A stretch of 64,000 nucleotides of DNA, from the NCBI RefSeq assembly GCF_003018255.1, contig NZ_CP027440.1. One strand, written 5' to 3'. Below, one piece after another: positions 17,737 through 60,240 of the stretch (position 1 is the stretch's first letter; every line of letters begins with the position of its first letter). The position numbers and the translations under genes were made by a program. The notes under the pieces are model-generated. The model had not been told where the DNA came from and searched no databases. It saw only the letters and a program-made list of their open reading frames with translations. This DNA comes from Escherichia coli. Its GTDB lineage: Bacteria > Pseudomonadota > Gammaproteobacteria > Enterobacterales > Enterobacteriaceae.

Positions 17737-18213
17737 TCAAGCAGGATGTTTGACGCGGGCGGCGTCAAGTACCAGCAGAATCAACTTATCTTCCAGCACA
17801 AAGCGTGCTTCCAGCGCCTCGCCGATGTCAGATAAAACCTGTTGAAACTCAAGGTAATTATCATGATCGATGGCGGTTTCCAGGCTGGAATCGTAGTAAT
17901 CCATAATCTGTTGGGTATTGGCTTCGAGTTGCGGCCAAATCTTCGCGGCGCGCGCGAGTTGCCCGTTGCCTTCCAGCTTATGAAGAATGCGCTCATAAAT
18001 ACTGAAATGTCCGGCAGACAAGTAATCGACCAGGCTCTGACAAAAATCATCAAGGGCTTTTTCGTTTAGCCTCATGTACGATTCTTTGCCAGGCTTAATG
18101 CCAACCAGATTGTAGTAAGCCACGAGCAGATGCTTACGTACATGTAGCCAGCGATCAACCAGTTTGTTACTTCCTCTGACGCGTTCCGTCAGGTTATCGA
18201 GCTGGTTAAGCAT
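17737..18213 (-). CDS. rsd: Regulator of sigma D (anti-sigma-70)
   Basis: 158-aa ORF recognised as Rsd; synteny. Confidence 0.95.
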   Translation of the reverse strand: MLNQLDNLTERVRGSNKLVDRWLHVRKHLLVAYYNLVGIKPGKESYMRLNEKALDDFCQSLVDYLSAGHFSIYERILHKLEGNGQLARAAKIWPQLEANTQQIMDYYDSSLETAIDHDNYLEFQQVLSDIGEALEARFVLEDKLILLVLDAARVKHPA

Positions 18214-18307
18214 GATTGACTCCGCAAGTTTGTATTCAAAAACTGCTCAGTGAGAAATGTAAAAACCATGTTAAACATGCCAGTGATGCAAAGGTAGTGC
18301 AAGAGCT

Positions 18308-19081
18308 ATGGATCGTATAATTGAAAAATTAGATCACGGCTGGTGGGTCGTCAGCCATGAACAAAAATTATGGTTGCCGAAGGGAGAATTGCCATATGGC
18401 GAAGCGGCAAATTTCGATCTTGTGGGTCAGCGCGCACTACAAATCGGCGAATGGCAAGGGGAACCTGTTTGGTTAGTACAACAGCAGCGGCGTCACGATA
18501 TGGGGTCGGTACGTCAGGTCATTGATCTCGATGTAGGGCTGTTTCAACTGGCCGGACGTGGCGTGCAACTGGCGGAGTTTTACCGATCGCATAAATACTG
18601 TGGTTACTGCGGGCATGAAATGTATCCAAGCAAAACCGAATGGGCGATGCTGTGCAGCCATTGCCGTGAGCGTTACTACCCGCAAATCGCCCCCTGCATT
18701 ATTGTTGCCATCCGTCGCGATGATTCGATCCTCCTCGCCCAGCATACCCGCCATCGTAACGGTGTCCATACAGTACTTGCCGGATTCGTCGAAGTGGGTG
18801 AACCCCTCGAGCAGGCAGTCGCGCGGGAAGTGATGGAAGAGAGCGGAATTAAAGTTAAAAACTTGCGTTACGTGACCTCCCAACCGTGGCCGTTTCCTCA
18901 GTCGTTAATGACCGCGTTTATGGCGGAATATGACAGCGGCGACATCGTTATCGACCCGAAAGAATTGCTCGAGGCGAACTGGTATCGCTATGACGATTTG
19001 CCGTTACTCCCGCCGCCCGGCACCGTAGCGCGCCGTCTGATAGAAGATACGGTGGCGATGTGTCGGGCAGAGTATGAGTGA
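18308..19081 (+). CDS. nudC: NADH pyrophosphatase (Nudix hydrolase)
   Basis: 257-aa ORF with C4 zinc cluster (CGYCG...CSHC) and Nudix box ([22 protein letters not shown]). Confidence 0.95.
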
Positions 19082-20908: not shown

Positions 20909-21499
20909 ATGTTACAAAACCCAATTCATCTGCGTCTGGAGCGCCTGGAAAGCTGGCAGCACGTCACTTTTATGGCCTGCTTATGCGAACGTATGTACCC
21001 CAATTACGCCGTATTCTGTCAGCAAACCGGCTTCGGCGATGGGCAGATTTACCGCCGCATTCTCGATCTCATTTGGGAAACGCTGACCGTCAAAGACGCA
21101 AAAGTAAATTTCGACAGCCAACTGGAGAAATTTGAAGAAGCGATTCCTTCAGCCGACGATTTCGATCTGTACGGCGTTTATCCGGCAATCGATGCTTGCG
21201 TGGCGTTAAGTGAACTGGTCCATTCGCGTTTAAGTGGCGAAACGCTCGAACACGCGGTGGAAGTGAGTAAGACTTCCATCACGACCGTGGCGATGCTGGA
21301 AATGACTCAGGCTGGTCGCGAAATGAGCGATGAAGAGCTCAAAGAAAACCCAGCTGTAGAGCAAGAATGGGACATTCAGTGGGAAATATTCCGACTTTTA
21401 GCTGAGTGCGAAGAACGCGATATCGAGCTGATAAAAGGCCTTAGGGCAGACCTGCGTGAGGCGGGTGAGAGCAATATTGGTATAATTTTTCAGCAATAA
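20909..21499 (+). CDS. yjaG: DUF416 family protein YjaG
   Basis: 196-aa ORF at the position of yjaG upstream of hupA. Confidence 0.9.
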   Translation: MLQNPIHLRLERLESWQHVTFMACLCERMYPNYAVFCQQTGFGDGQIYRRILDLIWETLTVKDAKVNFDSQLEKFEEAIPSADDFDLYGVYPAIDACVALSELVHSRLSGETLEHAVEVSKTSITTVAMLEMTQAGREMSDEELKENPAVEQEWDIQWEIFRLLAECEERDIELIKGLRADLREAGESNIGIIFQQ

Positions 21500-21685: not shown

Positions 21686-21958
21686 ATGAACAAGACTCAA
21701 CTGATTGATGTAATTGCAGAGAAAGCAGAACTGTCCAAAACCCAGGCTAAAGCTGCTCTGGAGTCCACTCTGGCTGCAATTACTGAGTCTCTGAAAGAAG
21801 GCGATGCTGTACAACTGGTTGGTTTCGGTACCTTCAAAGTGAACCACCGCGCTGAGCGTACTGGCCGCAACCCGCAGACCGGTAAAGAAATCAAAATTGC
21901 CGCAGCTAACGTACCGGCATTTGTTTCTGGCAAGGCACTGAAAGACGCAGTTAAGTAA
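21686..21958 (+). CDS. hupA: DNA-binding protein HU-alpha
   Basis: 90-aa ORF recognised as HU-alpha ([26 protein letters not shown]...). Confidence 0.97.
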
Positions 21959-21964
21959 GATTGC

Positions 21965-22666
21965 GTGGCAGTGAACAGTTTTAACGAAGGGGTGGTTTCA
22001 CCCCTTTTGTCTTTCTGGCGTCGATCATTGATGCTGGCTGGCGCTCTGTTTCTCACTGCTTGTAGTCACAACTCTTCACTTCCTCCCTTTACCGCCAGTG
22101 GATTTGCTGAAGACCAGGGCGCGGTACGCATCTGGCGAAAAGACAGCGGCGATAATGTGCATCTTCTTGCCGTGTTTAGCCCGTGGCGCAGTGGCGATAC
22201 GACGACGCGAGAGTATCGCTGGCAGGGCGATAACCTCACGCTCATCAATATCAATGTTTACAGCAAACCCCCGGTGAATATTCGCGCGCGTTTTGACGAT
22301 CGCGGCGATCTGAGCTTTATGCAACGCGAATCCGATGGGGAAAAGCAGCAGCTTTCTAACGACCAAATCGATTTATACCGTTATCGTGCTGATCAGATCC
22401 GCCAGATTAGCGATGCCTTACGTCAGGGGAGAGTCGTGCTGCGCCAGGGGCGCTGGCATGCGATGGAGCAGACTGTGACCACCTGCGAAGGGCAAACCAT
22501 TAAACCTGATTTAGATTCGCAGGCGATAGCGCATATCGAGCGCCGCCAGAGCCGCTCTTCTGTTGATGTCAGCGTGGCATGGCTGGAAGCGCCCGAAGGT
22601 TCGCAATTACTGTTGGTGGCAAACTCTGATTTCTGTCGCTGGCAACCCAACGAGAAAACGTTCTGA
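21965..22666 (+). CDS. yjaH: Putative lipoprotein YjaH (start codon uncertain; GTG at 21965 or 21971)
   Basis: ORF with signal peptide and lipobox (LFLTAC) at the position of yjaH. Confidence 0.85.
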   Translation: MAVNSFNEGVVSPLLSFWRRSLMLAGALFLTACSHNSSLPPFTASGFAEDQGAVRIWRKDSGDNVHLLAVFSPWRSGDTTTREYRWQGDNLTLININVYSKPPVNIRARFDDRGDLSFMQRESDGEKQQLSNDQIDLYRYRADQIRQISDALRQGRVVLRQGRWHAMEQTVTTCEGQTIKPDLDSQAIAHIERRQSRSSVDVSVAWLEAPEGSQLLLVANSDFCRWQPNEKTF

Positions 22667-22667
22667 T

Positions 22668-23087
22668 TTACCAGTGGTCCATACCCATATGACCGCCACC
22701 ACCGCAGCCGCCGTAACCCATTCCGGTACCGCGCGGAATACCCGCTTCAGCCATCGCAATATCTCGTTTCACCCGTAACTCATCTAACGACTGACGCAAA
22801 TTCTCCATCTCTTTGGCGACCGCGTTAATTTTGCTGCTATCCGGTGGGTTCGCGGCTAACAGGGCATTGTATTCATAACGCTTTGTTACCAGTTGCTGTT
22901 GCAGTGCGCTGCTTTGAGCGTAAAAGTCATTATGGATTTTCTGCCACGCTGTCTGTTGTTCGCTGGTCAAAGGCGCGGCATTTTGCTGCCACATACCGTG
23001 TCCGCCGTGAGCAAATGCCGATGTCGATCCCATCGCCATTGCTGAAAGCGCCATCATTACCAGGGCAATTTTCGTGTTCCGTTTCAT
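22668..23087 (-). CDS. zraP: Zinc-resistance-associated periplasmic protein ZraP
   Basis: 139-aa product from MKRNTKIALVMMALS (signal peptide) with Gly/His/Met-rich C-terminus; internal start of the 186-aa ORF in the track. Confidence 0.9.
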   Translation of the reverse strand: MKRNTKIALVMMALSAMAMGSTSAFAHGGHGMWQQNAAPLTSEQQTAWQKIHNDFYAQSSALQQQLVTKRYEYNALLAANPPDSSKINAVAKEMENLRQSLDELRVKRDIAMAEAGIPRGTGMGYGGCGGGGHMGMDHW

Positions 23088-23122
23088 GGTTAATCCTCCA
23101 GTGGTTGTCTTACTTCGGGTAT

Positions 23123-23138
23123 TGCATCTTCCGTGCCA
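23123..23138 (-). promoter_or_regulatory. Sigma-54 promoter for zraP (minus-strand tggcac-N5-atgca)
   Basis: Minus-strand sequence ttggcacggaagatgcaat fits the -24 GG / -12 GC consensus. Confidence 0.5.
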
Positions 23139-23170
23139 ACGATGAAACGCTGATATGACGGGTAATCTGG

Positions 23171-23216
23171 CATGATAAACGAGTAAAAATGACTCGCCTG
23201 CTGCGGGTAGCGAGTC
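23171..23216. promoter_or_regulatory. ZraR enhancer: perfect 17-bp inverted repeat gagtaaaaatgactcgc / gcgagtcatttttactc
   Basis: Palindrome read directly; lies between divergent zraP and zraS sigma-54 promoters. Confidence 0.55.
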
Positions 23217-23277
23217 ATTTTTACTCATTGAAACTTAAGCCTTTGTGTTACAGCGCAGGGTAAGCGCTGATAAAAGA

Positions 23278-23292
23278 TGGCATGATTTCTGC
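23278..23292 (+). promoter_or_regulatory. Sigma-54 promoter for zraSR (tggcat-N4-ttctgc)
   Basis: Near-consensus -24/-12 element about 30 bp upstream of zraS start. Confidence 0.45.
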
Positions 23293-23324
23293 TGTCAGAA
23301 AGGGATGAGCAGGCAAAGAAGAAG

Positions 23325-24701
23325 ATGCGTTTTATGCAACGTTCTAAAGACTCCTTAGCTAAATGGTTAAGCGCGATCCTCCCCGTGGTCATTGTTGGGC
23401 TGGTGGGGCTGTTTGCGGTGACAGTGATTCGCGATTACGGGCGCGAGACTGCAGCCGCCAGACAAACGCTGCTGGAAAAAGGCAGTGTACTTATCCGTGC
23501 TCTCGAATCCGGCTCGCGCGTCGGCATGGGGATGCGCATGCATCATGCGCAGCAGCAGGCATTACTGGAAGAAATGGCCGGGCAGCCTGGTGTACGTTGG
23601 TTTGCGGTCACGGATGAACAAGGAACAATCGTGATGCATAGCAACTCCGGCATGGTGGGAAAACAGCTTTATTCCCCGCAGGAAATGCAGCAGTTACATC
23701 CGGGAGATGAAGAAGCGTGGCGGCGGATCGATAGCGCAGACGGCGAGCCTGTTCTGGAAATTTATCGCCAGTTTCAACCGATGTTTGCTGCTGGAATGCA
23801 CCGGATGCGCCATATGCAGCAGTATGCCGCGACACCACAAGCAATTTTTATCGCTTTCGACGCCAGTAACATTGTGAGTGCCGAAGATCGTGAGCAGAGA
23901 AACACCCTGATTATCCTCTTCGCCCTGGCGACGGTCTTGCTGGCAAGCGTGTTGTCATTCTTCTGGTATCGCCGATATCTGCGCTCGGGCCAGCTGTTGC
24001 AGGATGAAATGAAGCGCAAAGAGAAGCTGGTGGCACTGGGGCATCTTGCGGCAGGCGTTGCCCACGAAATCCGTAACCCACTTTCCTCGATTAAAGGGCT
24101 GGCGAAATACTTTGCCGAACGCGCGCCAGCAGGGGGAGAAGCGCATCAACTGGCGCAGGTGATGGCGAAAGAAGCCGACCGTTTAAACCGCGTGGTAAGC
24201 GAGTTGCTGGAACTGGTTAAGCCAACGCATCTGGCTTTGCAGGCGGTGGATCTCAACACGCTGATTAACCACTCATTACAGCTGGTAAGCCAGGATGCAA
24301 ACAGCCGGGAGATCCAGTTACGCTTTACCGCCAACGACACATTACCGGAAATTCAGGCCGATCCGGACAGGCTGACTCAGGTCCTGTTGAATCTCTATCT
24401 CAATGCTATTCAGGCGATTGGTCAGCATGGCGTGATTAGCGTGACGGCCAGCGAAAGCGGCACGGGTGTGAAAATCAGCGTTACCGACAGCGGTAAGGGA
24501 ATTGCGGCGGATCAGCTTGAAGCCATCTTCACCCCGTATTTCACCACGAAGGCCGAAGGCACCGGACTGGGGCTGGCGGTCGTGCATAATATTGTTGAAC
24601 AACACGGTGGTACAATTCAGGTCGCAAGCCAGGTGGGAAAAGGCGCAACGTTCACCCTCTGGCTTCCGGTCACTATTACGCGTAAGGACCCACAAGGATG
24701 A
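23325..24701 (+). CDS. zraS: Sensor histidine kinase ZraS
   Basis: 458-aa ORF with H-box (HEIRNPLSSIKG) and ATPase motifs; overlaps zraR start by 4 bp. Confidence 0.93.
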   Translation: MRFMQRSKDSLAKWLSAILPVVIVGLVGLFAVTVIRDYGRETAAARQTLLEKGSVLIRALESGSRVGMGMRMHHAQQQALLEEMAGQPGVRWFAVTDEQGTIVMHSNSGMVGKQLYSPQEMQQLHPGDEEAWRRIDSADGEPVLEIYRQFQPMFAAGMHRMRHMQQYAATPQAIFIAFDASNIVSAEDREQRNTLIILFALATVLLASVLSFFWYRRYLRSGQLLQDEMKRKEKLVALGHLAAGVAHEIRNPLSSIKGLAKYFAERAPAGGEAHQLAQVMAKEADRLNRVVSELLELVKPTHLALQAVDLNTLINHSLQLVSQDANSREIQLRFTANDTLPEIQADPDRLTQVLLNLYLNAIQAIGQHGVISVTASESGTGVKISVTDSGKGIAADQLEAIFTPYFTTKAEGTGLGLAVVHNIVEQHGGTIQVASQVGKGATFTLWLPVTITRKDPQG

Positions 24702-26023
24702 CGCACGATAATATCGATATTCTGGTGGTGGATGATGACATTAGCCACTGCACTATTTTGCAGGCTTTGCTGCGCGGCTGGGGCTATAACGTCGCGCTGG
24801 CGAACAGCGGGCGACAGGCGCTGGAGCAGGTGCGGGAACAGGTTTTTGATCTTGTGCTTTGCGATGTGCGAATGGCGGAGATGGACGGCATTGCCACGCT
24901 AAAAGAGATCAAAGCGCTAAATCCGGCGATTCCGGTACTGATTATGACCGCATACTCCAGCGTCGAGACGGCGGTAGAGGCACTGAAAACCGGGGCGCTG
25001 GATTATCTCATCAAGCCGCTGGATTTCGATAACCTGCAGGCGACGCTGGAAAAGGCGCTCGCACATACGCACAGTGTTGACGCTGAAACGCCTGCGGTGT
25101 CTGCCAGCCAGTTCGGTATGGTAGGTAAAAGCCCGGCGATGCAACACCTGCTCAGTGAAATCGCCCTCGTCGCGCCATCGGAAGCCACAGTGCTGATCCA
25201 CGGCGATTCCGGCACCGGTAAAGAGCTGGTCGCAAGGGCGATTCACGCCAGTAGCGCACGGAGTGAAAAACCACTGGTAACGCTCAACTGTGCGGCACTC
25301 AACGAATCCTTGCTGGAATCTGAATTGTTCGGTCACGAAAAAGGGGCGTTTACCGGAGCCGATAAACGCCGGGAAGGGCGCTTTGTTGAGGCGGACGGCG
25401 GCACGCTGTTTCTCGATGAAATTGGCGATATCTCGCCGATGATGCAGGTTCGTCTGCTGCGTGCGATTCAGGAGCGCGAAGTTCAGCGTGTCGGCAGCAA
25501 CCAGACCATCTCGGTTGATGTCCGGCTGATTGCGGCGACTCATCGCGATCTTGCCGCAGAGGTGAATGCCGGGCGTTTTCGCCAGGATCTCTACTATCGC
25601 CTGAACGTGGTGGCGATTGAAGTTCCGTCGCTGCGTCAGCGGCGGGAAGATATTCCTCTGCTGGCAAACCATTTTCTTCAGCGCTTTGCCGAGCGTAATC
25701 GTAAGGCGGTAAAAGGTTTTACGCCCCAGGCGATGGATCTGCTGATTCACTACGACTGGCCGGGAAATATTCGTGAACTGGAAAACACGGTGGAACGGGC
25801 GGTGGTGCTGCTGACCGGGGAATATATTTCCGAACGCGAGCTGCCGCTGGCGATTGCGAGTACGCCGATCCCGCTGGTACAAAGTCAGGATATTCAGCCG
25901 CTGGTGGAAGTCGAAAAAGAGGTGATTCTGGCGGCGCTGGAGAAAACGGGCGGCAACAAAACCGAAGCCGCCCGCCAGTTAGGGATCACGCGCAAAACGC
26001 TATTGGCAAAACTGTCGCGTTAG
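24698..26023 (+). CDS. zraR: Sigma-54-dependent response regulator ZraR
   Basis: 441-aa ORF with receiver domain, AAA+ Walker A (GDSGTGKE), GAFTGA motif and C-terminal HTH. Confidence 0.95.
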
Positions 26024-27309
26024 TTCTGCTCGCGTTCGATAGCGCGCCAGCCGATATCTTTCCGGCAGAAGCAGTCGTCCCAATGGATATCGGTCATTAA
26101 GGCATAAGCGCGTTTCTGCGCTTCTGCCACGGTATGACCCAGCGCGGTAACGCACAGTACGCGCCCGCCGCTGGTCACTACCTGCTCGTCATCCGCTAGT
26201 TTCGTGCCCGCGTGGAACACTTTGCCGTCTGCCACTTCTTCCAGCGGCAGGCCGTGGATCACATCGCCGGTGCGGTAATCGCCCGGATATCCACCCGCAG
26301 CCATCACCACGCCGAGAGAAGCGCGTTCATCCCACTCGGACGTTTTCTCGTCCAGCTTGCCTTCACAGGCCGCCAGGCAGAGCTCAACCAGATCGGACTT
26401 CATGCGCAGCATAATCGGCTGGGTTTCTGGATCGCCAAAGCGGCAGTTAAATTCAATAACCTTCGGATTGCCCTGTTTGTCGATCATCAGGCCCGCGTAG
26501 AGAAAACCAGTGTAGGTGTTGCCTTCTGCCGCCATGCCTTTCACGGTTGGCCAGATGATTCGTTCCATCGTGCGCTGATGAACTTCATCGGTTACTACCG
26601 GCGCGGGGGAGTAAGCGCCCATCCCGCCCGTGTTTGGTCCGGTATCTTTATCGCCTACGCGTTTGTGATCCTGGCTGGTAGCCATCGGCAGCACATGCTC
26701 GCCGTCCACCATCACGATAAAGCTCGCTTCTTCGCCATCGAGGAACTCTTCGATAACGATGCGATGACCCGCGTCGCCAAACGCGTTGCCCGCCAGCATA
26801 TCGTGAACAGCTGCTTCAGCTTCTTCCAGCGTCATCGCCACGATAACGCCTTTCCCGGCTGCCAGACCGTCAGCTTTAATGACGATTGGCGCGCCTTTCT
26901 CACGCAGATACGCCAGCGCAGGTTCTACCTCGGTGAAGTTCTGGTATTCCGCTGTGGGAATGTTATGGCGGGCCAGAAAGTCTTTGGTGAATGCTTTAGA
27001 ACCTTCCAGTTGTGCGGCACCTGCGGTTGGGCCGAAGATTTTCAGCCCGGCGGCGCGGAAGGTATCGACTACGCCTTTCACCAGCGGCGCTTCCGGGCCG
27101 ACGATGGTTAGATCGATCTTTTCGTTTTGCGCGAAATCCAGCAGCGCCGGGATATCGGTTACGCCGATAGCGACGTTTTGCAGTGTGGGTTCCAGCGCAG
27201 TGCCTGCATTACCCGGAGCAACAAAAACAGTTTCAACCAGCGGCGACTGGGCCGCTTTCCAGGCCAGCGCGTGCTCGCGCCCGCCGTTACCAATCACTAA
27301 TACTTTCAT
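26020..27309 (-). CDS. purD: Phosphoribosylamine--glycine ligase
   Basis: 429-aa product from MKVLVIGNGGREHALAWK; internal start of the 433-aa ORF in the track. Confidence 0.95.
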   Translation of the reverse strand: MKVLVIGNGGREHALAWKAAQSPLVETVFVAPGNAGTALEPTLQNVAIGVTDIPALLDFAQNEKIDLTIVGPEAPLVKGVVDTFRAAGLKIFGPTAGAAQLEGSKAFTKDFLARHNIPTAEYQNFTEVEPALAYLREKGAPIVIKADGLAAGKGVIVAMTLEEAEAAVHDMLAGNAFGDAGHRIVIEEFLDGEEASFIVMVDGEHVLPMATSQDHKRVGDKDTGPNTGGMGAYSPAPVVTDEVHQRTMERIIWPTVKGMAAEGNTYTGFLYAGLMIDKQGNPKVIEFNCRFGDPETQPIMLRMKSDLVELCLAACEGKLDEKTSEWDERASLGVVMAAGGYPGDYRTGDVIHGLPLEEVADGKVFHAGTKLADDEQVVTSGGRVLCVTALGHTVAEAQKRAYALMTDIHWDDCFCRKDIGWRAIEREQN

Positions 27310-27320
27310 CTGTCGCTCCA

Positions 27321-28910
27321 TTAATGGCGGAAGTGGCGCATGTCGGTGAAGAGCATCGCAATACCGTGCTCGTCGGCGGCGGCAATCACTTCGTCATCAC
27401 GGATAGAACCGCCAGGCTGGATTACGCAGGTCACACCCGCAGCGGCGGCGGCATCAATACCGTCGCGGAACGGGAAGAACGCGTCAGAAGCCATCGAGGA
27501 ACCTTTCACTTCCAGGCCTTCATCGGCCGCTTTAATACCGGCGATTTTTGCGGAGTACACGCGGCTCATCTGGCCCGCGCCAATGCCGATGGTCATATTG
27601 TTTTTGGCATAGACAATGGCGTTGGATTTCACGAACTTCGCCACTTTCCAGCAGAACAGCGCATCACGCAGTTCCTGTTCGGTCGGCTGACGTTTGGTGA
27701 CGACGCGCAGTTCTTCTGCACCGACCATGCCCAGGTCGCGATCCTGAACCAGCAGACCGCCGTTAACACGTTTGAAATCAAGACCCGGAACACGCTCGCC
27801 CCACTGACCGCAGGTCAGGACGCGTACGTTCTGTTTGGCGGCGGTGATTTTCAGGGCTTCTTCGCTGGCGGACGGCGCAATAATCACTTCAACAAACTGA
27901 CGAGAAATGATGGCCTGCGCGGTTTCCGCATCCAGCTCGCGGTTAAAGGCGATAATGCCGCCGAATGCGGAGGTCGGGTCGGTTTTGTACGCGCGATCGT
28001 AAGCATCAAGAATGGAATTGCTGATAGCCACGCCGCACGGGTTGGCGTGCTTCACAATCACACATGCTGGCTCGGCGAACTCTTTCACGCACTCCAGCGC
28101 CGCATCGGTATCGGCGATGTTGTTATAAGAGAGGGCCTTACCCTGAACCTGGGTTGCGGTGGCAACAGAGGCTTCTTTCACGTTCTCTTCTATATAGAAG
28201 GCAGCCTGCTGGTGGCTGTTCTCGCCGTAACGCATATCCTGCTTCTTAATGAAGTTCAGGTTCAGCGTGCGTGGGAAGCGACCGGCGGCTTCTTTGCTTT
28301 CACCGTGGTAAGCCGGAACCATGCTGCCGAAGTAGTTGGCAATCATGCTGTCGTAGGCGGCGGTATGTTCAAAGGCTTTGATAGCGAGATCGAAACGGGT
28401 TGCAAGCAGAAGCGATCCTTCGTTGGCATCCATCTCTTTAATGATGGCGTCGTAGTCGCTGCTCTTCACCACGATGGCGACATCTTTATGGTTCTTGGCG
28501 GCAGAGCGCACCATCGTCGGGCCGCCGATATCGATGTTCTCAACCGCATCTTCCAGCGAGCAACCTTCACGGGCAACGGTCTGGGCGAACGGATACAGGT
28601 TAACAACCACCATATCGATAGGCTGGATCTGATGTTCTTCCATAATGGCATCGTCCTGGCCGCGACGGCCCAGAATGCCACCATGTACTTTCGGATGCAG
28701 GGTCTTCACGCGTCCATCCATCATCTCCGGGAAACCGGTGTAATCGGAAACTTCGGTTACCGGCAGACCTTTTTCTGCTAACAGACGGGCTGTGCCCCCT
28801 GTAGACAGCAGCTCCACACCGCGTGCGGAAAGTGCCTGGGCGAATTCGACGATACCGGCTTTGTCAGAAACACTGAGCAGAGCGCGGCGGACTGGACGAC
28901 GTTGTTGCAT
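27321..28910 (-). CDS. purH: Bifunctional AICAR transformylase / IMP cyclohydrolase
   Basis: 529-aa ORF recognised as PurH. Confidence 0.97.
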
Positions 28911-60206: not shown

Positions 60207-60240
60207 AAAACAATGCCGACTATAAGTCGGCATTGTTTTA
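60207..60240. terminator. Hairpin terminator (A-run / 14-bp stem / T-run; potentially bidirectional)
   Basis: aaaacaatgccgac-tataa-gtcggcattgtttt. Confidence 0.6.

What the first reader, a model, noticed from the sequence alone, without database searches (positions are those of the whole stretch)
23123..23292. Divergent sigma-54 promoters around a perfect 17-bp-arm palindrome in the zraP-zraS intergenic region
A perfect inverted repeat gagtaaaaatgactcgc-N12-gcgagtcatttttactc (23171-23216) lies between a minus-strand tggcac-N5-atgca element (zraP) and a plus-strand tggcat-N4-ttctgc element (zraS). This matches the known ZraR enhancer architecture and confirms the locus is intact. It is an unusually clean example of a bidirectional enhancer readable directly from sequence.
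Basis: partly seen in the sequence, partly recalled or inferred. Interest (0 to 1): 0.3.

Follow-up and report, generated by a model that had tools for sequence, protein, structure and literature searches.

The report
Known ZraR enhancer between zraP and zraSR
This is the already characterised control region of the E. coli zinc/envelope-stress genes zraP and zraSR: two mirror-image binding sites for the activator ZraR sit between two back-to-back sigma-54 promoters. It is real and well conserved, but it is ordinary textbook biology.

Summary
It sits between a minus-strand TGGCAC-N5-ATGCA element (23123-23139) and a plus-strand TGGCAT-N5-CTGCT element (23277-23293).

The window is E. coli, and this 237-bp intergenic region is base-for-base identical to K-12 MG1655. 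Published K-12 data therefore map directly:
- Both -24/-12 elements are the motifs under sigma-54 ChIP-seq peaks OS38 and OS39.
- The strongest ZraR ChIP-exo peak maps to 23185-23217, inside the palindrome.
- gSELEX finds this spacer as ZraR's one high-affinity target.
- Deleting zraR lowers zraP by 12.7 log2 units and zraS by 3.2 log2 units under zinc.

A PWM built from 40 other sigma-54 sites ranks the two elements first and second in the 64-kb window.

In 46 orthologous loci from 10 enterobacterial genera, only four blocks are conserved: both promoters and two 17-bp sites (YGRGTAAAAATGACYCR), 31-33 bp apart. The arms vary independently, so perfect symmetry is incidental and not a selected hairpin.

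Escherichia has lost about 11 bp, roughly one helical turn, between the enhancer and PzraP. No IHF site is conserved.

Verdict: interpretation supported, already known, low interest.

The parts
22668..23087 (-). zraP coding sequence (139 aa; periplasmic CpxP-like accessory protein and chaperone)
   Evidence: ORF. Pfam Metal_resist, E = 1.3e-23. Annotated as zraP in E. coli RefSeq genomes.
23123..23139 (-). PzraP sigma-54 -24/-12 element, TTGGCACGGAAGATGCA. GG is at 23137/23136 and GC at 23125/23124.
   Evidence: Sequence. Leave-out sigma-54 PWM gives 15.2 bits, rank 2 in the window. Identical to the motif of sigma-54 ChIP-seq peak OS38 (FAT 39, PMC4591121). Conserved across the aligned orthologs and scoring 14.9-17.3 bits in all but one of the 46 orthologous loci; the -24 GG is lost in Klebsiella indica and the string differs in Pluralibacter.
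23112..23112 (-). Predicted zraP transcription start, 19 bp downstream of the motif centre, giving a 25-nt leader
   Evidence: Rule and distance (25) come from PMC4591121 Table 1, mapped onto the window. This is a prediction, not a start site measured here.
23180..23196 (.). ZraR site 1 (zraP-proximal), CGAGTAAAAATGACTCG, a 17-bp pseudo-dyad. Its centre, 23188, lies at -76 from PzraP and -116 from PzraS.
   Evidence: ZraR-site PWM built from non-E. coli orthologs gives 31.7 bits, and the next-best non-zra hit in the window is 9.6. 13 of 17 positions are at least 98% conserved in 94 sites. Lies under ZraR ChIP-exo peak_9.
23197..23210 (.). 14-bp spacer between the two ZraR sites (CCTGCTGCGGGTAG). 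Its sequence is not conserved; its length is 14-16 bp across genera.
   Evidence: Alignment A1. Centre-to-centre distance is 31 bp in 28 sequences, 32 in 17 and 33 in 2.
23211..23227 (.). ZraR site 2 (zraS-proximal), CGAGTCATTTTTACTCA, the mirror image of site 1. Its centre, 23219, lies at -85 from PzraS and -107 from PzraP.
   Evidence: PWM 30.4 bits on the minus strand. Conserved in orthologs. Lies under ChIP-exo peak_9.
23181..23226 (.).
23277..23293 (+). PzraSR sigma-54 -24/-12 element, ATGGCATGATTTCTGCT. GG is at 23279/23280 and GC at 23291/23292.
   Evidence: Leave-out PWM gives 17.9 bits, rank 1 in the window. Identical to the motif of sigma-54 ChIP-seq peak OS39 (FAT 9). Scores 15.9-19.5 bits in 45 of the 46 orthologous loci, with single-base variants in Salmonella and Trabulsiella; degenerate in Pluralibacter. 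The Salmonella LT2 equivalent is bound by sigma-54 and is sigma-54-dependent (PMC3844500).
23304..23304 (+). Predicted zraSR transcription start, giving a 21-nt leader
   Evidence: PMC4591121 Table 1 rule and distance (21). This is a prediction.
23325..24701 (+). zraS (458 aa sensor histidine kinase)
   Evidence: ORF. Pfam HisKA plus HATPase_c. RefSeq annotation.
24698..26023 (+). zraR (441 aa sigma-54 enhancer-binding response regulator, the protein that binds the two sites)
   Evidence: Pfam Response_reg, Sigma54_activat, AAA_lid_14 and HTH_8. A GAFTGA motif is visible in the translation. Matches PDB 1OJL ZraR at E = 7e-178.

Best explanation
The region is the shared upstream activating sequence (enhancer) of the E. 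coli zraP / zraSR divergon.

**Anatomy.** There are two 17-bp sites, CGAGTAAAAATGACTCG at 23180-23196 and its mirror image at 23211-23227. Their centres are 31 bp apart, about three helical turns, so they lie on the same face of the DNA. Each site is inferred to bind one dimer of the Fis-type HTH domain of ZraR, the NtrC-family response regulator encoded just downstream.

**Mechanism.**
1. RNA polymerase carrying sigma-54 sits in closed complexes at two divergent -24/-12 promoters: PzraP (23123-23139, minus strand) and PzraSR (23277-23293, plus strand).
2. ZraS senses periplasmic Zn2+/Pb2+ or envelope stress and phosphorylates ZraR.
3. ZraR assembles into an ATPase oligomer nucleated on the paired sites.
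4. The oligomer reaches either promoter by looping the 55-100 bp of intervening DNA.
5. ATP hydrolysis drives open-complex formation.

The outcome is strong induction of zraP and modest positive autoregulation of zraSR.

**What is shown.**
- The sequence anatomy.
- Its strict conservation, set against unconserved but length-constrained spacers.
- Sigma-54 occupancy of both elements.
- ZraR occupancy of the palindrome.
- ZraR dependence of both transcripts.

**What is inferred.**
- One dimer per 17-bp site.
- Oligomerisation across the two sites.
- Looping without IHF.
- One enhancer serving both promoters.
For: **Sequence and statistics.**
- Palindrome and promoter strings are present.
- It is the longest perfect inverted repeat in the window.
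- The two elements rank 1 and 2 by a leave-out sigma-54 PWM.

**Identity with K-12.** The intergenic region is 100% identical to MG1655, so K-12 data transfer directly.

**Published experiments mapped here.**
- Sigma-54 ChIP-seq peaks OS38 and OS39 carry exactly these motifs, with motif centres 154 bp apart as in the window.
- ZraR ChIP-exo peak_9, the strongest in that dataset, maps to 23185-23217.
- ZraR gSELEX gave a single high-affinity target in this spacer; 81 of 86 clones carried it.
- RNA-seq of a zraR deletion versus wild type under zinc gave zraP -12.7 log2 and zraS -3.18 log2.
- In Salmonella LT2, sigma-54 ChIP-chip and microarray data cover the orthologous promoters.

**Phylogenetic footprint.** I compared 46 orthologous zraP-zraS loci from Escherichia, Citrobacter, Salmonella, Kosakonia, Trabulsiella, Kluyvera, Klebsiella, Phytobacter and Pluralibacter, plus a soil MAG.
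- Only four blocks are conserved: both -24/-12 elements and the two 17-bp sites.
- The distance from palindrome centre to the PzraS motif centre is 78.5-82 bp in all of them.
- The distance to the PzraP motif centre is 80.5-86 bp outside Escherichia, 71.5 bp in E. albertii and 72.5 bp in the other Escherichia sequences.

**The activator.** ZraR carries all bEBP domains and matches the solved ZraR structure 1OJL.
Against: - The original footprint and primer-extension data (Leonhartsberger 2001) could not be read. Exact protected bases and measured start sites were not compared.
- No IHF consensus is conserved in the spacers. Looping over such short distances therefore has no identified bending aid.
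- A second ZraR ChIP-exo peak (S/N 34) maps to 23072-23097, over the zraP start codon, where there is no ZraR-like motif. It is unexplained.
- Basal zraS expression is independent of ZraR (log2FC -0.02 without zinc). A consensus scan nevertheless finds no sigma-70-like promoter in the spacer, so the description of zraSR transcription is incomplete.
- Whether one oligomer serves both promoters cannot be told from sequence.
Confidence: 0.93

Rival explanations
1. There are two independent enhancers rather than one shared element. Site 1 would serve only PzraP and site 2 only PzraSR, and the inverted arrangement would simply reflect each site facing its own promoter.
For: Each site is closer to one promoter: -76 versus -116 for site 1 and -85 versus -107 for site 2 (coordinates). 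The two sites differ slightly in preferred bases. Site 1 is almost always CGAGT...ACTCG, while site 2 has G or A at -6 and C or T at +6.
Against: The centre-to-centre spacing is held at 31-33 bp, about three turns, in all 47 sequences, although the spacer sequence is free. That is expected if the two dimers must cooperate. By established knowledge of NtrC-family activators (not tested here), at least two adjacent dimer sites are needed to nucleate the active oligomer. The ChIP-exo signal is a single peak spanning both arms.
Confidence: 0.1
2. The palindrome acts as a nucleic-acid structure, meaning a DNA cruciform, an RNA hairpin, a terminator or a REP-like element, rather than as protein-binding sites.
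For: As a single strand it folds into a 17-bp stem with a free energy of -17.7 kcal/mol and z = -7 against shuffles.
Against: It lies upstream of both predicted start sites, so it is not transcribed from either promoter. No terminator-like T-run is present. No Rfam family reaches threshold. Across 45 distinct ortholog site pairs, the variable positions of the two arms change independently: observed identity is about that expected under independence, with no compensatory pattern, and only 6 of 45 pairs have perfect arms. The 12-16 nt loop is not conserved.
Confidence: 0.01
3. The conserved 17-bp sites are primarily bound by a different protein, such as a repressor or a nucleoid protein that recognises the A5 tract. 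ZraR would bind elsewhere or only indirectly.
For: The invariant asymmetric AAAAATG core is unusual for a two-fold symmetric dimer site. A 2016 review lists the ZraR enhancer sequence as 'NK' (PMC4987338). A second ZraR ChIP-exo peak lies elsewhere, at 23072-23097.
Against: In vitro gSELEX with purified ZraR selects this spacer as its single strong target. The top ChIP-exo peak is centred on the palindrome. Purified HydG binds the intergenic region. No other strongly conserved block exists in the spacer that could be the ZraR site.
Confidence: 0.02

Closest known systems
ZraR (HydG) binding region of the E. coli zraP-hydHG (zraSR) intergenic region (Leonhartsberger, Huber, Lottspeich & Bock, J Mol Biol 2001)
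   Same: It is the same locus and the same DNA; the window's spacer is 100% identical to K-12. My parsing gives two inverted repeats (CGAGT-N7-ACTCG) separated by exactly 14 bp (23197-23210). That agrees with my recollection of that paper's abstract ('two inverted repeats separated by a 14 bp spacer'). The recollection is from memory and unverified, because the paper is not held.
   Different: Nothing differs in kind. New here are the cross-genus consensus YGRGTAAAAATGACYCR, the spacing statistics, the roughly 11-bp deletion in Escherichia, and the test showing that arm-to-arm perfection is not selected.
NtrC enhancer at glnAp2 (established knowledge, not tested here: two strong 17-bp dyad sites about three turns apart, upstream of a sigma-54 promoter)
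   Same: The sites are 17 bp long and dyad-symmetric in their flanks. A pair of sites lies about 31-32 bp apart. The activator has the same Response_reg, AAA+ and HTH_8 architecture. Action is at a distance on a -24/-12 promoter.
   Different: The recognition sequence is different. The ZraR sites have a strictly conserved asymmetric A5TG core and are arranged as mirror images. The enhancer lies between two divergent sigma-54 promoters and is closer to them (-76 to -116).
NorR enhancer in the norR-norVW intergenic region (PMC2831303)
   Same: The site core is GT-N7-AC. The ZraR sites also contain GT at -5/-4 and AC at +4/+5 with 7 bp between them. Both lie in a divergent intergenic setting next to the regulator's own gene. 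NorR is also a single-target regulator by gSELEX.
   Different: NorR needs three sites and has an IHF site between the enhancer and the promoter. Here there are only two sites and no conserved IHF consensus. At nor, only one of the divergent promoters is sigma-54 dependent (from memory, not checked in the cited paper).
hycA / hypA divergent sigma-54 promoter pair of E. coli (FhlA-dependent)
   Same: It is another pair of back-to-back sigma-54 promoters, with motif centres 128 bp apart (OS27 and OS28 in PMC4591121 Table 1), compared with 154 bp here.
   Different: The activator is FhlA and the enhancer sequence is CATTTCGTACGAAATG. I did not examine where the enhancer lies relative to those promoters.

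Membership tests
Sigma-54 (RpoN) -24/-12 promoter | GG and GC dinucleotides exactly 10 bp apart (GG-N10-GC) within a TGGCAC-N5-TTGCW-like string, oriented towards a downstream gene | tested here: met
   PzraP is TGGCACGGAAGATGCA (minus strand) and PzraS is TGGCATGATTTCTGCT (plus strand). The predicted start sites lie 25 and 21 nt before the start codons.
Sigma-54 (RpoN) -24/-12 promoter | Quantitative resemblance to experimentally bound sigma-54 sites, above background | tested here: met
   A PWM from 40 other ChIP-seq sites gives 17.9 and 15.2 bits, ranks 1 and 2 of about 128,000 window positions. The median score of the training sites is 16.0.
Sigma-54 (RpoN) -24/-12 promoter | Occupied by sigma-54 in vivo | tested here: met
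   Published ChIP-seq peaks OS38 (FAT 39) and OS39 (FAT 9) carry the identical 17-mers. The spacer is identical to K-12. The Salmonella orthologs are also bound. This is literature data mapped here, not a new experiment.
Sigma-54 (RpoN) -24/-12 promoter | Transcription depends on an enhancer-binding ATPase | tested here: met
   Published RNA-seq of a zraR deletion versus wild type under zinc gives zraP -12.7 log2 and zraS -3.18 log2. Basal zraS expression is ZraR-independent.
NtrC-family bEBP enhancer (UAS) | Two or more dyad-symmetric sites of about 17 bp for HTH_8 dimers, on the same helical face | tested here: met
   There are two 17-bp sites, symmetric at positions +/-8, 7, 6, 5, 4 and 2. 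Their centres are 31-33 bp apart in 47 sequences. There is no third site.
NtrC-family bEBP enhancer (UAS) | Located upstream (roughly 70-150 bp) of the -24/-12 promoter it serves | tested here: met
   The site centres lie at -76 and -107 from PzraP and at -85 and -116 from PzraS (coordinates).
NtrC-family bEBP enhancer (UAS) | Bound by the cognate activator | tested here: met
   ZraR ChIP-exo peak_9 maps to 23185-23217. gSELEX gives a single target. HydG binds the intergenic region in vitro. The base-resolution footprint was not available.
NtrC-family bEBP enhancer (UAS) | Cognate activator has receiver, AAA+ sigma-54-interaction (GAFTGA) and Fis-type HTH domains | tested here: met
   Pfam Response_reg, Sigma54_activat, AAA_lid_14 and HTH_8. 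GAFTGA is visible in the translation. PDB 1OJL matches at E = 7e-178.
NtrC-family bEBP enhancer (UAS) | IHF site between the enhancer and the promoter (frequent but not obligatory) | tested here: not met
   WATCAANNNNTTR at up to 1 mismatch is absent from 42 of 47 spacers and is never at a conserved position.
NtrC-family bEBP enhancer (UAS) | Stoichiometry (one dimer per site, hexamer on the pair) and DNA looping | not testable with these tools
   This needs biochemistry or structural work.
Structured RNA / intrinsic terminator / cruciform element | Arm-to-arm complementarity maintained by compensatory change; a T-run or a match to a known family | tested here: not met
   The arms vary independently and are perfect in only 6 of 45 distinct site pairs. 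No terminator-like site. No Rfam family above threshold.

The most novel reading that the evidence does not exclude
The most novel reading concerns geometry rather than the sites themselves. The zra control region may be a rigid, IHF-independent, stereospecific bidirectional enhancer in which geometry is the selected trait.

Four observations fit this reading:
- The asymmetric A5TG core is at least 98% conserved at every position across 94 sites.
- The two sites are always mirror images.
- The spacers are free in sequence but fixed in length. The distance to the PzraS motif centre is 78.5-82 bp in all genera; the distance to the PzraP motif centre is 80.5-86 bp outside Escherichia.
- The only large length change seen, in Escherichia, is about 11 bp, roughly one helical turn.

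On this view, the in-phase mirrored A-tracts bend the DNA symmetrically about the dyad. A single ZraR oligomer could then touch either of two promoters on the correct helical face.
Probability: 0.3. Interest if true: 0.3.

Novelty: already known. Interest (0 to 1): 0.1.

Why it matters
It matters little for discovery. This is the characterised ZraR-dependent control region of a well-studied E. coli stress system, and the window's copy is identical to K-12.

There are three modest gains:
- A 2016 review still lists the ZraR enhancer sequence as 'not known' (PMC4987338), and no open-access paper in the library states it. The 17-bp consensus YGRGTAAAAATGACYCR derived here from 94 orthologous sites is a usable motif for regulon searches. 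It bears on the dispute between a single-target view of ZraR (gSELEX) and a 25-target view (ChIP-seq). Only the two zra sites in this 64-kb window match it.
- The length-conserved but sequence-free spacers, together with the roughly one-turn deletion in Escherichia, form a natural experiment on face-of-the-helix constraints at a bidirectional sigma-54 enhancer.
- PzraP is widely used as a zinc/lead biosensor promoter, so knowing the minimal conserved parts helps with engineering.

Tried and rejected
- **Bare consensus search.** TGGCAC-N5-TTGCW at up to 2 mismatches gave 34 hits against 40.7 expected. It is uninformative by itself, so I replaced it with a leave-out PWM.
- **Original footprint paper.** Retrieval of Leonhartsberger 2001 by PubMed id failed because the paper is not held. 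Seven full-text searches found no open-access statement of the ZraR site sequence. Passages in PMC4279683 and PMC8772777 were irrelevant to the site.
- **Second TGGCATGAT copy** at 23168-23176, considered as a possible extra -24 element. Rejected: there is no GC at the -12 position, the PWM score is low, and it is not conserved even in E. albertii or E. whittamii.
- **AGCGC-N7-GCGCT** at about 23252-23268, and the 12-nt inverted repeat 23080-23091 / 23138-23149, considered as extra operators. Neither is conserved, so I treat them as chance.
- **Third ZraR site**, as NorR has. None found; the next-best PWM hit in or near the spacer scores below 3 bits.
- **IHF site.** No conserved match.
- **Sigma-70 promoter or terminator in the spacer.** None by consensus scan.
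- **Known RNA family.** None.
- **Hairpin or cruciform function.** Rejected by the arm-independence test.
- **DNA curvature.** I did not attempt a prediction because I could not reproduce the parameter tables reliably from memory.
Full report
**1. What is in the sequence**

The window is E. coli chromosome. The 301 bp around the finding occur in 5,420 of 5,426 complete E. coli genomes and are annotated zraP | zraS. The local gene order is as follows:

| Coordinates | Strand | Gene |
|---|---|---|
| 20909-21499 | + | yjaG-like |
| 21686-21958 | + | hupA |
| 21965-22666 | + | yjaH |
| 22668-23087 | - | zraP |
| 23325-24701 | + | zraS |
| 24698-26023 | + | zraR |
| 26020-27321 | - | purD |
| from 27321 | - | purH |

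The 237-bp zraP-zraS spacer (23088-23324) is base-for-base identical to K-12 MG1655 NC_000913.3 4201689-4201925. Window coordinate equals NC_000913.3 coordinate minus 4,178,601.

**2. Check of the observation**

- The perfect inverted repeat GAGTAAAAATGACTCGC-N12-GCGAGTCATTTTTACTC lies at 23181-23197 / 23210-23226.
- The minus-strand element reads TTGGCACGGAAGATGCA (23139 down to 23123).
- The plus-strand element reads ATGGCATGATTTCTGCT (23277-23293).

The palindrome is the longest perfect inverted repeat (spacer up to 40) in the 64-kb window. Random sequences of the same size reach at most 12 nt.

The bare sigma-54 consensus is not enriched in the window: 34 matches against 40.7 expected. I therefore built a PWM from 40 other intergenic ChIP-seq-bound sigma-54 motifs, with zraP and zraS left out (Table 1 of PMC4591121). 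With it the zraS and zraP elements score 17.9 and 15.2 bits and rank first and second of about 128,000 positions. Promoter scoring does not place the elements elsewhere.

**3. Experimental data that map onto this DNA**

Because the spacer is identical to K-12, published K-12 data apply directly.
- **Sigma-54 ChIP-seq.** Peaks OS38 (zraP, fold-above-threshold 39) and OS39 (zraS, 9) carry exactly these 17-mers. Their motif centres are 154 bp apart, as in the window. The predicted starts lie 25 and 21 nt before the start codons, which places them at 23112 and 23304.
- **ZraR ChIP-exo** (PMC7657598, Data Set S2). The strongest peak, peak_9 with S/N 73, spans 4201786-4201818. This maps to window 23185-23217, centred at 23201 against a palindrome centre of 23203.5.
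- **gSELEX.** ZraR binds a single high-affinity target, this spacer; 81 of 86 clones carried it (PMC8249747).
- **RNA-seq.** A zraR deletion versus wild type under zinc gives zraP -12.7 log2 and zraS -3.18 log2.
- **Salmonella LT2.** The orthologous TGGCACGGAAGATGCAAG and TGGCATGATCTCTGCTTA are bound by sigma-54, and the genes are sigma-54 dependent (PMC3844500).
- **In vitro binding.** A review paraphrases the original study: HydG, given a phosphoryl donor, binds the zraP-hydHG intergenic region (PMC5391612).

The original paper (Leonhartsberger et al. 2001) is not held. From memory, and unverified, its abstract describes the site as 'two inverted repeats separated by a 14 bp spacer'.

**4. 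Anatomy refined**

Each 17-nt arm is itself a pseudo-palindrome:
- Site 1 is CGAGT-AAAAATG-ACTCG at 23180-23196.
- Site 2 is CGAGT-CATTTTT-ACTCA at 23211-23227.
- They are separated by exactly 14 bp (23197-23210), and their centres are 31 bp apart.

This matches the remembered description. It also matches the NtrC-family pattern of 17-bp dimer sites about three turns apart (established knowledge).

I collected 46 orthologous loci with a ZraS-based scan of species-representative genomes. They come from Escherichia, Citrobacter, Salmonella, Kosakonia, Trabulsiella, Kluyvera, Klebsiella, Phytobacter and Pluralibacter, plus a soil MAG. All have a divergent zraP.

In the alignment only four blocks are conserved, against 57% mean column identity: the PzraP element, site 1, site 2 and the PzraS element.

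The 94 sites give the consensus Y-G-R-G-T-A-A-A-A-A-T-G-A-C-Y-C-R, with these properties:
- 13 of 17 positions are at least 98% conserved.
- The flanks are symmetric at positions +/-8, 7, 6, 5, 4 and 2.
- The core is asymmetric and near-invariant (at least 98% at every position).
- The core contains GT-N7-AC, which is also the NorR core.

A PWM built from the non-E. coli sites finds only these two sites in the window, at 31.7 and 30.4 bits; the next best is 9.6. The reverse orientation scores only 2-3 bits, and there is no third site.

**5. Is the perfect symmetry itself functional?**

No. Among 45 distinct ortholog site pairs, the variable positions of the two arms change independently. Observed arm-to-arm identity against that expected under independence was:

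| Position | Observed | Expected |
|---|---|---|
| -8 | 0.76 | 0.69 |
| -6 | 0.58 | 0.53 |
| +6 | 0.29 | 0.42 |
| +8 | 0.67 | 0.66 |

Only 6 of 45 pairs have perfect 17-nt arms; most have 1-3 mismatches.

The element lies upstream of both starts. It has no T-run and matches no Rfam family. Its hairpin-forming potential is a trivial consequence of two inverted copies of one constrained protein site.

**6. Geometry**

- The distance from palindrome centre to the PzraS motif centre is 78.5-82 bp in all 47 sequences, although the intervening sequence is not conserved.
- The distance to the PzraP motif centre is 80.5-86 bp in every non-Escherichia genus. It is 71.5 bp in E. albertii and 72.5 bp in the window and the four other Escherichia representatives.
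- The alignment shows this as a 12-column gap between PzraP and site 1.
- By parsimony, Escherichia lost about 11 bp, roughly one helical turn. That preserves the rotational setting of the enhancer relative to PzraP. This is a single event, so it is suggestive only.
- No IHF consensus is conserved.
- In E. coli the site centres lie at -76 and -107 from PzraP and at -85 and -116 from PzraS.

**7. Mechanism**

The mechanism is given in full under best explanation. In brief:
1. E-sigma54 sits in closed complexes at both promoters. This is shown by ChIP-seq.
2. ZraS, activated by zinc/lead or envelope stress, phosphorylates ZraR. This rests on the literature.
3. ZraR dimers on the two phased sites nucleate the AAA+ oligomer. 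This is inferred from the family and from the 1OJL hexamer.
4. The oligomer loops to either promoter and drives open-complex formation.

The result is very strong zraP induction and mild positive autoregulation of zraSR, as the RNA-seq shows.

The main rival is that each site serves only its nearer promoter. I rate it about 0.1, because the inter-site spacing is conserved and the ChIP-exo signal is a single peak.

**8. Comparison and novelty**

This is the known ZraR enhancer. It meets every testable defining feature of a sigma-54 promoter pair and of an NtrC-family UAS. The exception is the optional IHF site.

It differs from glnAp2/NtrC in its sequence, its mirrored asymmetric cores and its bidirectional use. 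It differs from NorR in having two sites rather than three and no IHF site.

The novelty class is 'already known', and interest is low. The modest additions are the cross-genus consensus, the geometry statistics and the roughly one-turn deletion. On the consensus, one review lists the ZraR enhancer as 'NK', and no open-access paper in the library states it.

**9. Loose ends**

- A second ZraR ChIP-exo peak maps to 23072-23097, over the zraP start codon, where there is no motif.
- Basal zraS expression is ZraR-independent, yet no sigma-70-like promoter is detected in the spacer.
- The ZraS periplasmic domain shows a strong allelic dimorphism.

Noticed in passing
window 23440-23900 (zraS codons ~40-190, periplasmic sensor domain): The window's ZraS is about 99% identical to K-12 in its transmembrane and cytoplasmic parts. 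Its periplasmic sensor domain is highly diverged, with many substitutions and 7 residues fewer in two gaps (458 versus 465 aa). Across 5,419 E. coli genomes, 4,183 carry the window-type allele (at least 95% DNA identity) and 1,236 carry an allele only 60-80% identical; K-12 carries a diverged allele. The adjacent promoter region is at least 95% identical in nearly all genomes. This looks like an old allelic dimorphism or a recombination mosaic confined to the signal-sensing domain.
   Followed up: partly
window 23072-23097 (zraP start codon and leader, about +15 to +40 of PzraP): A second published ZraR ChIP-exo peak (peak_8, S/N 34) maps here. There is no ZraR-like motif at this position; the best PWM score is below 0. 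It may be an indirect cross-link through the looped promoter complex, but it remains unexplained.
   Followed up: partly
window 23088-23324 (whole spacer): Published RNA-seq shows that basal zraS expression is unaffected by a zraR deletion without zinc (log2FC -0.02), whereas zraP drops by 5.6 log2 units. A ZraR-independent promoter for zraSR should therefore exist. The consensus scan finds no sigma-70-like promoter in 23000-23400.
   Followed up: partly
window 23168-23176 versus 23278-23286: There is an exact 9-bp direct repeat, TGGCATGAT, with one copy just left of ZraR site 1 and the other forming the real PzraS -24 element. The upstream copy has no -12 GC and is not conserved even within Escherichia. 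It is probably chance.
   Followed up: yes
L032 (Klebsiella indica) ~2785-2801; L042 (Pluralibacter MAG) ~2923-2939: Two orthologs carry degraded promoter elements. K. indica PzraP has TCGGCAC, with the -24 GG lost, and scores 8.8 bits. Pluralibacter PzraS reads GTGGCATGATCACCGTT, with the -12 GC lost, and scores 7.9 bits; one of its ZraR sites is also altered (GTCATTTCGAC). This may reflect regulatory decay in those lineages.
   Followed up: no
window 18287-18303 (minus strand): The third-best sigma-54 PWM hit in the window is CTTGCACTACCTTTGCA at 14.6 bits. It lies in the gap between a minus-strand 158-aa ORF (17737-18213) and a plus-strand 257-aa ORF (18308-19081). It lacks the -24 GG. A text search for nearby coordinates in the main text of PMC4591121 found nothing.
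   Followed up: partly
window 60207-60239: The second-longest perfect inverted repeat in the window is AAAACAATGCCGACT-ATA-AGTCGGCATTGTTTT, with 15-nt arms. It has an A-run on one side and a T-run on the other. It looks like a bidirectional intrinsic terminator.
   Followed up: no
window 22668-22740 (zraP 3' end): The Gly/Met-rich C-terminal tail of ZraP is 2 residues shorter than in K-12 (T--GMGYGG versus AGMGMGYGG) and has one further substitution. This looks like small repeat-length variation in the tail.
   Followed up: no
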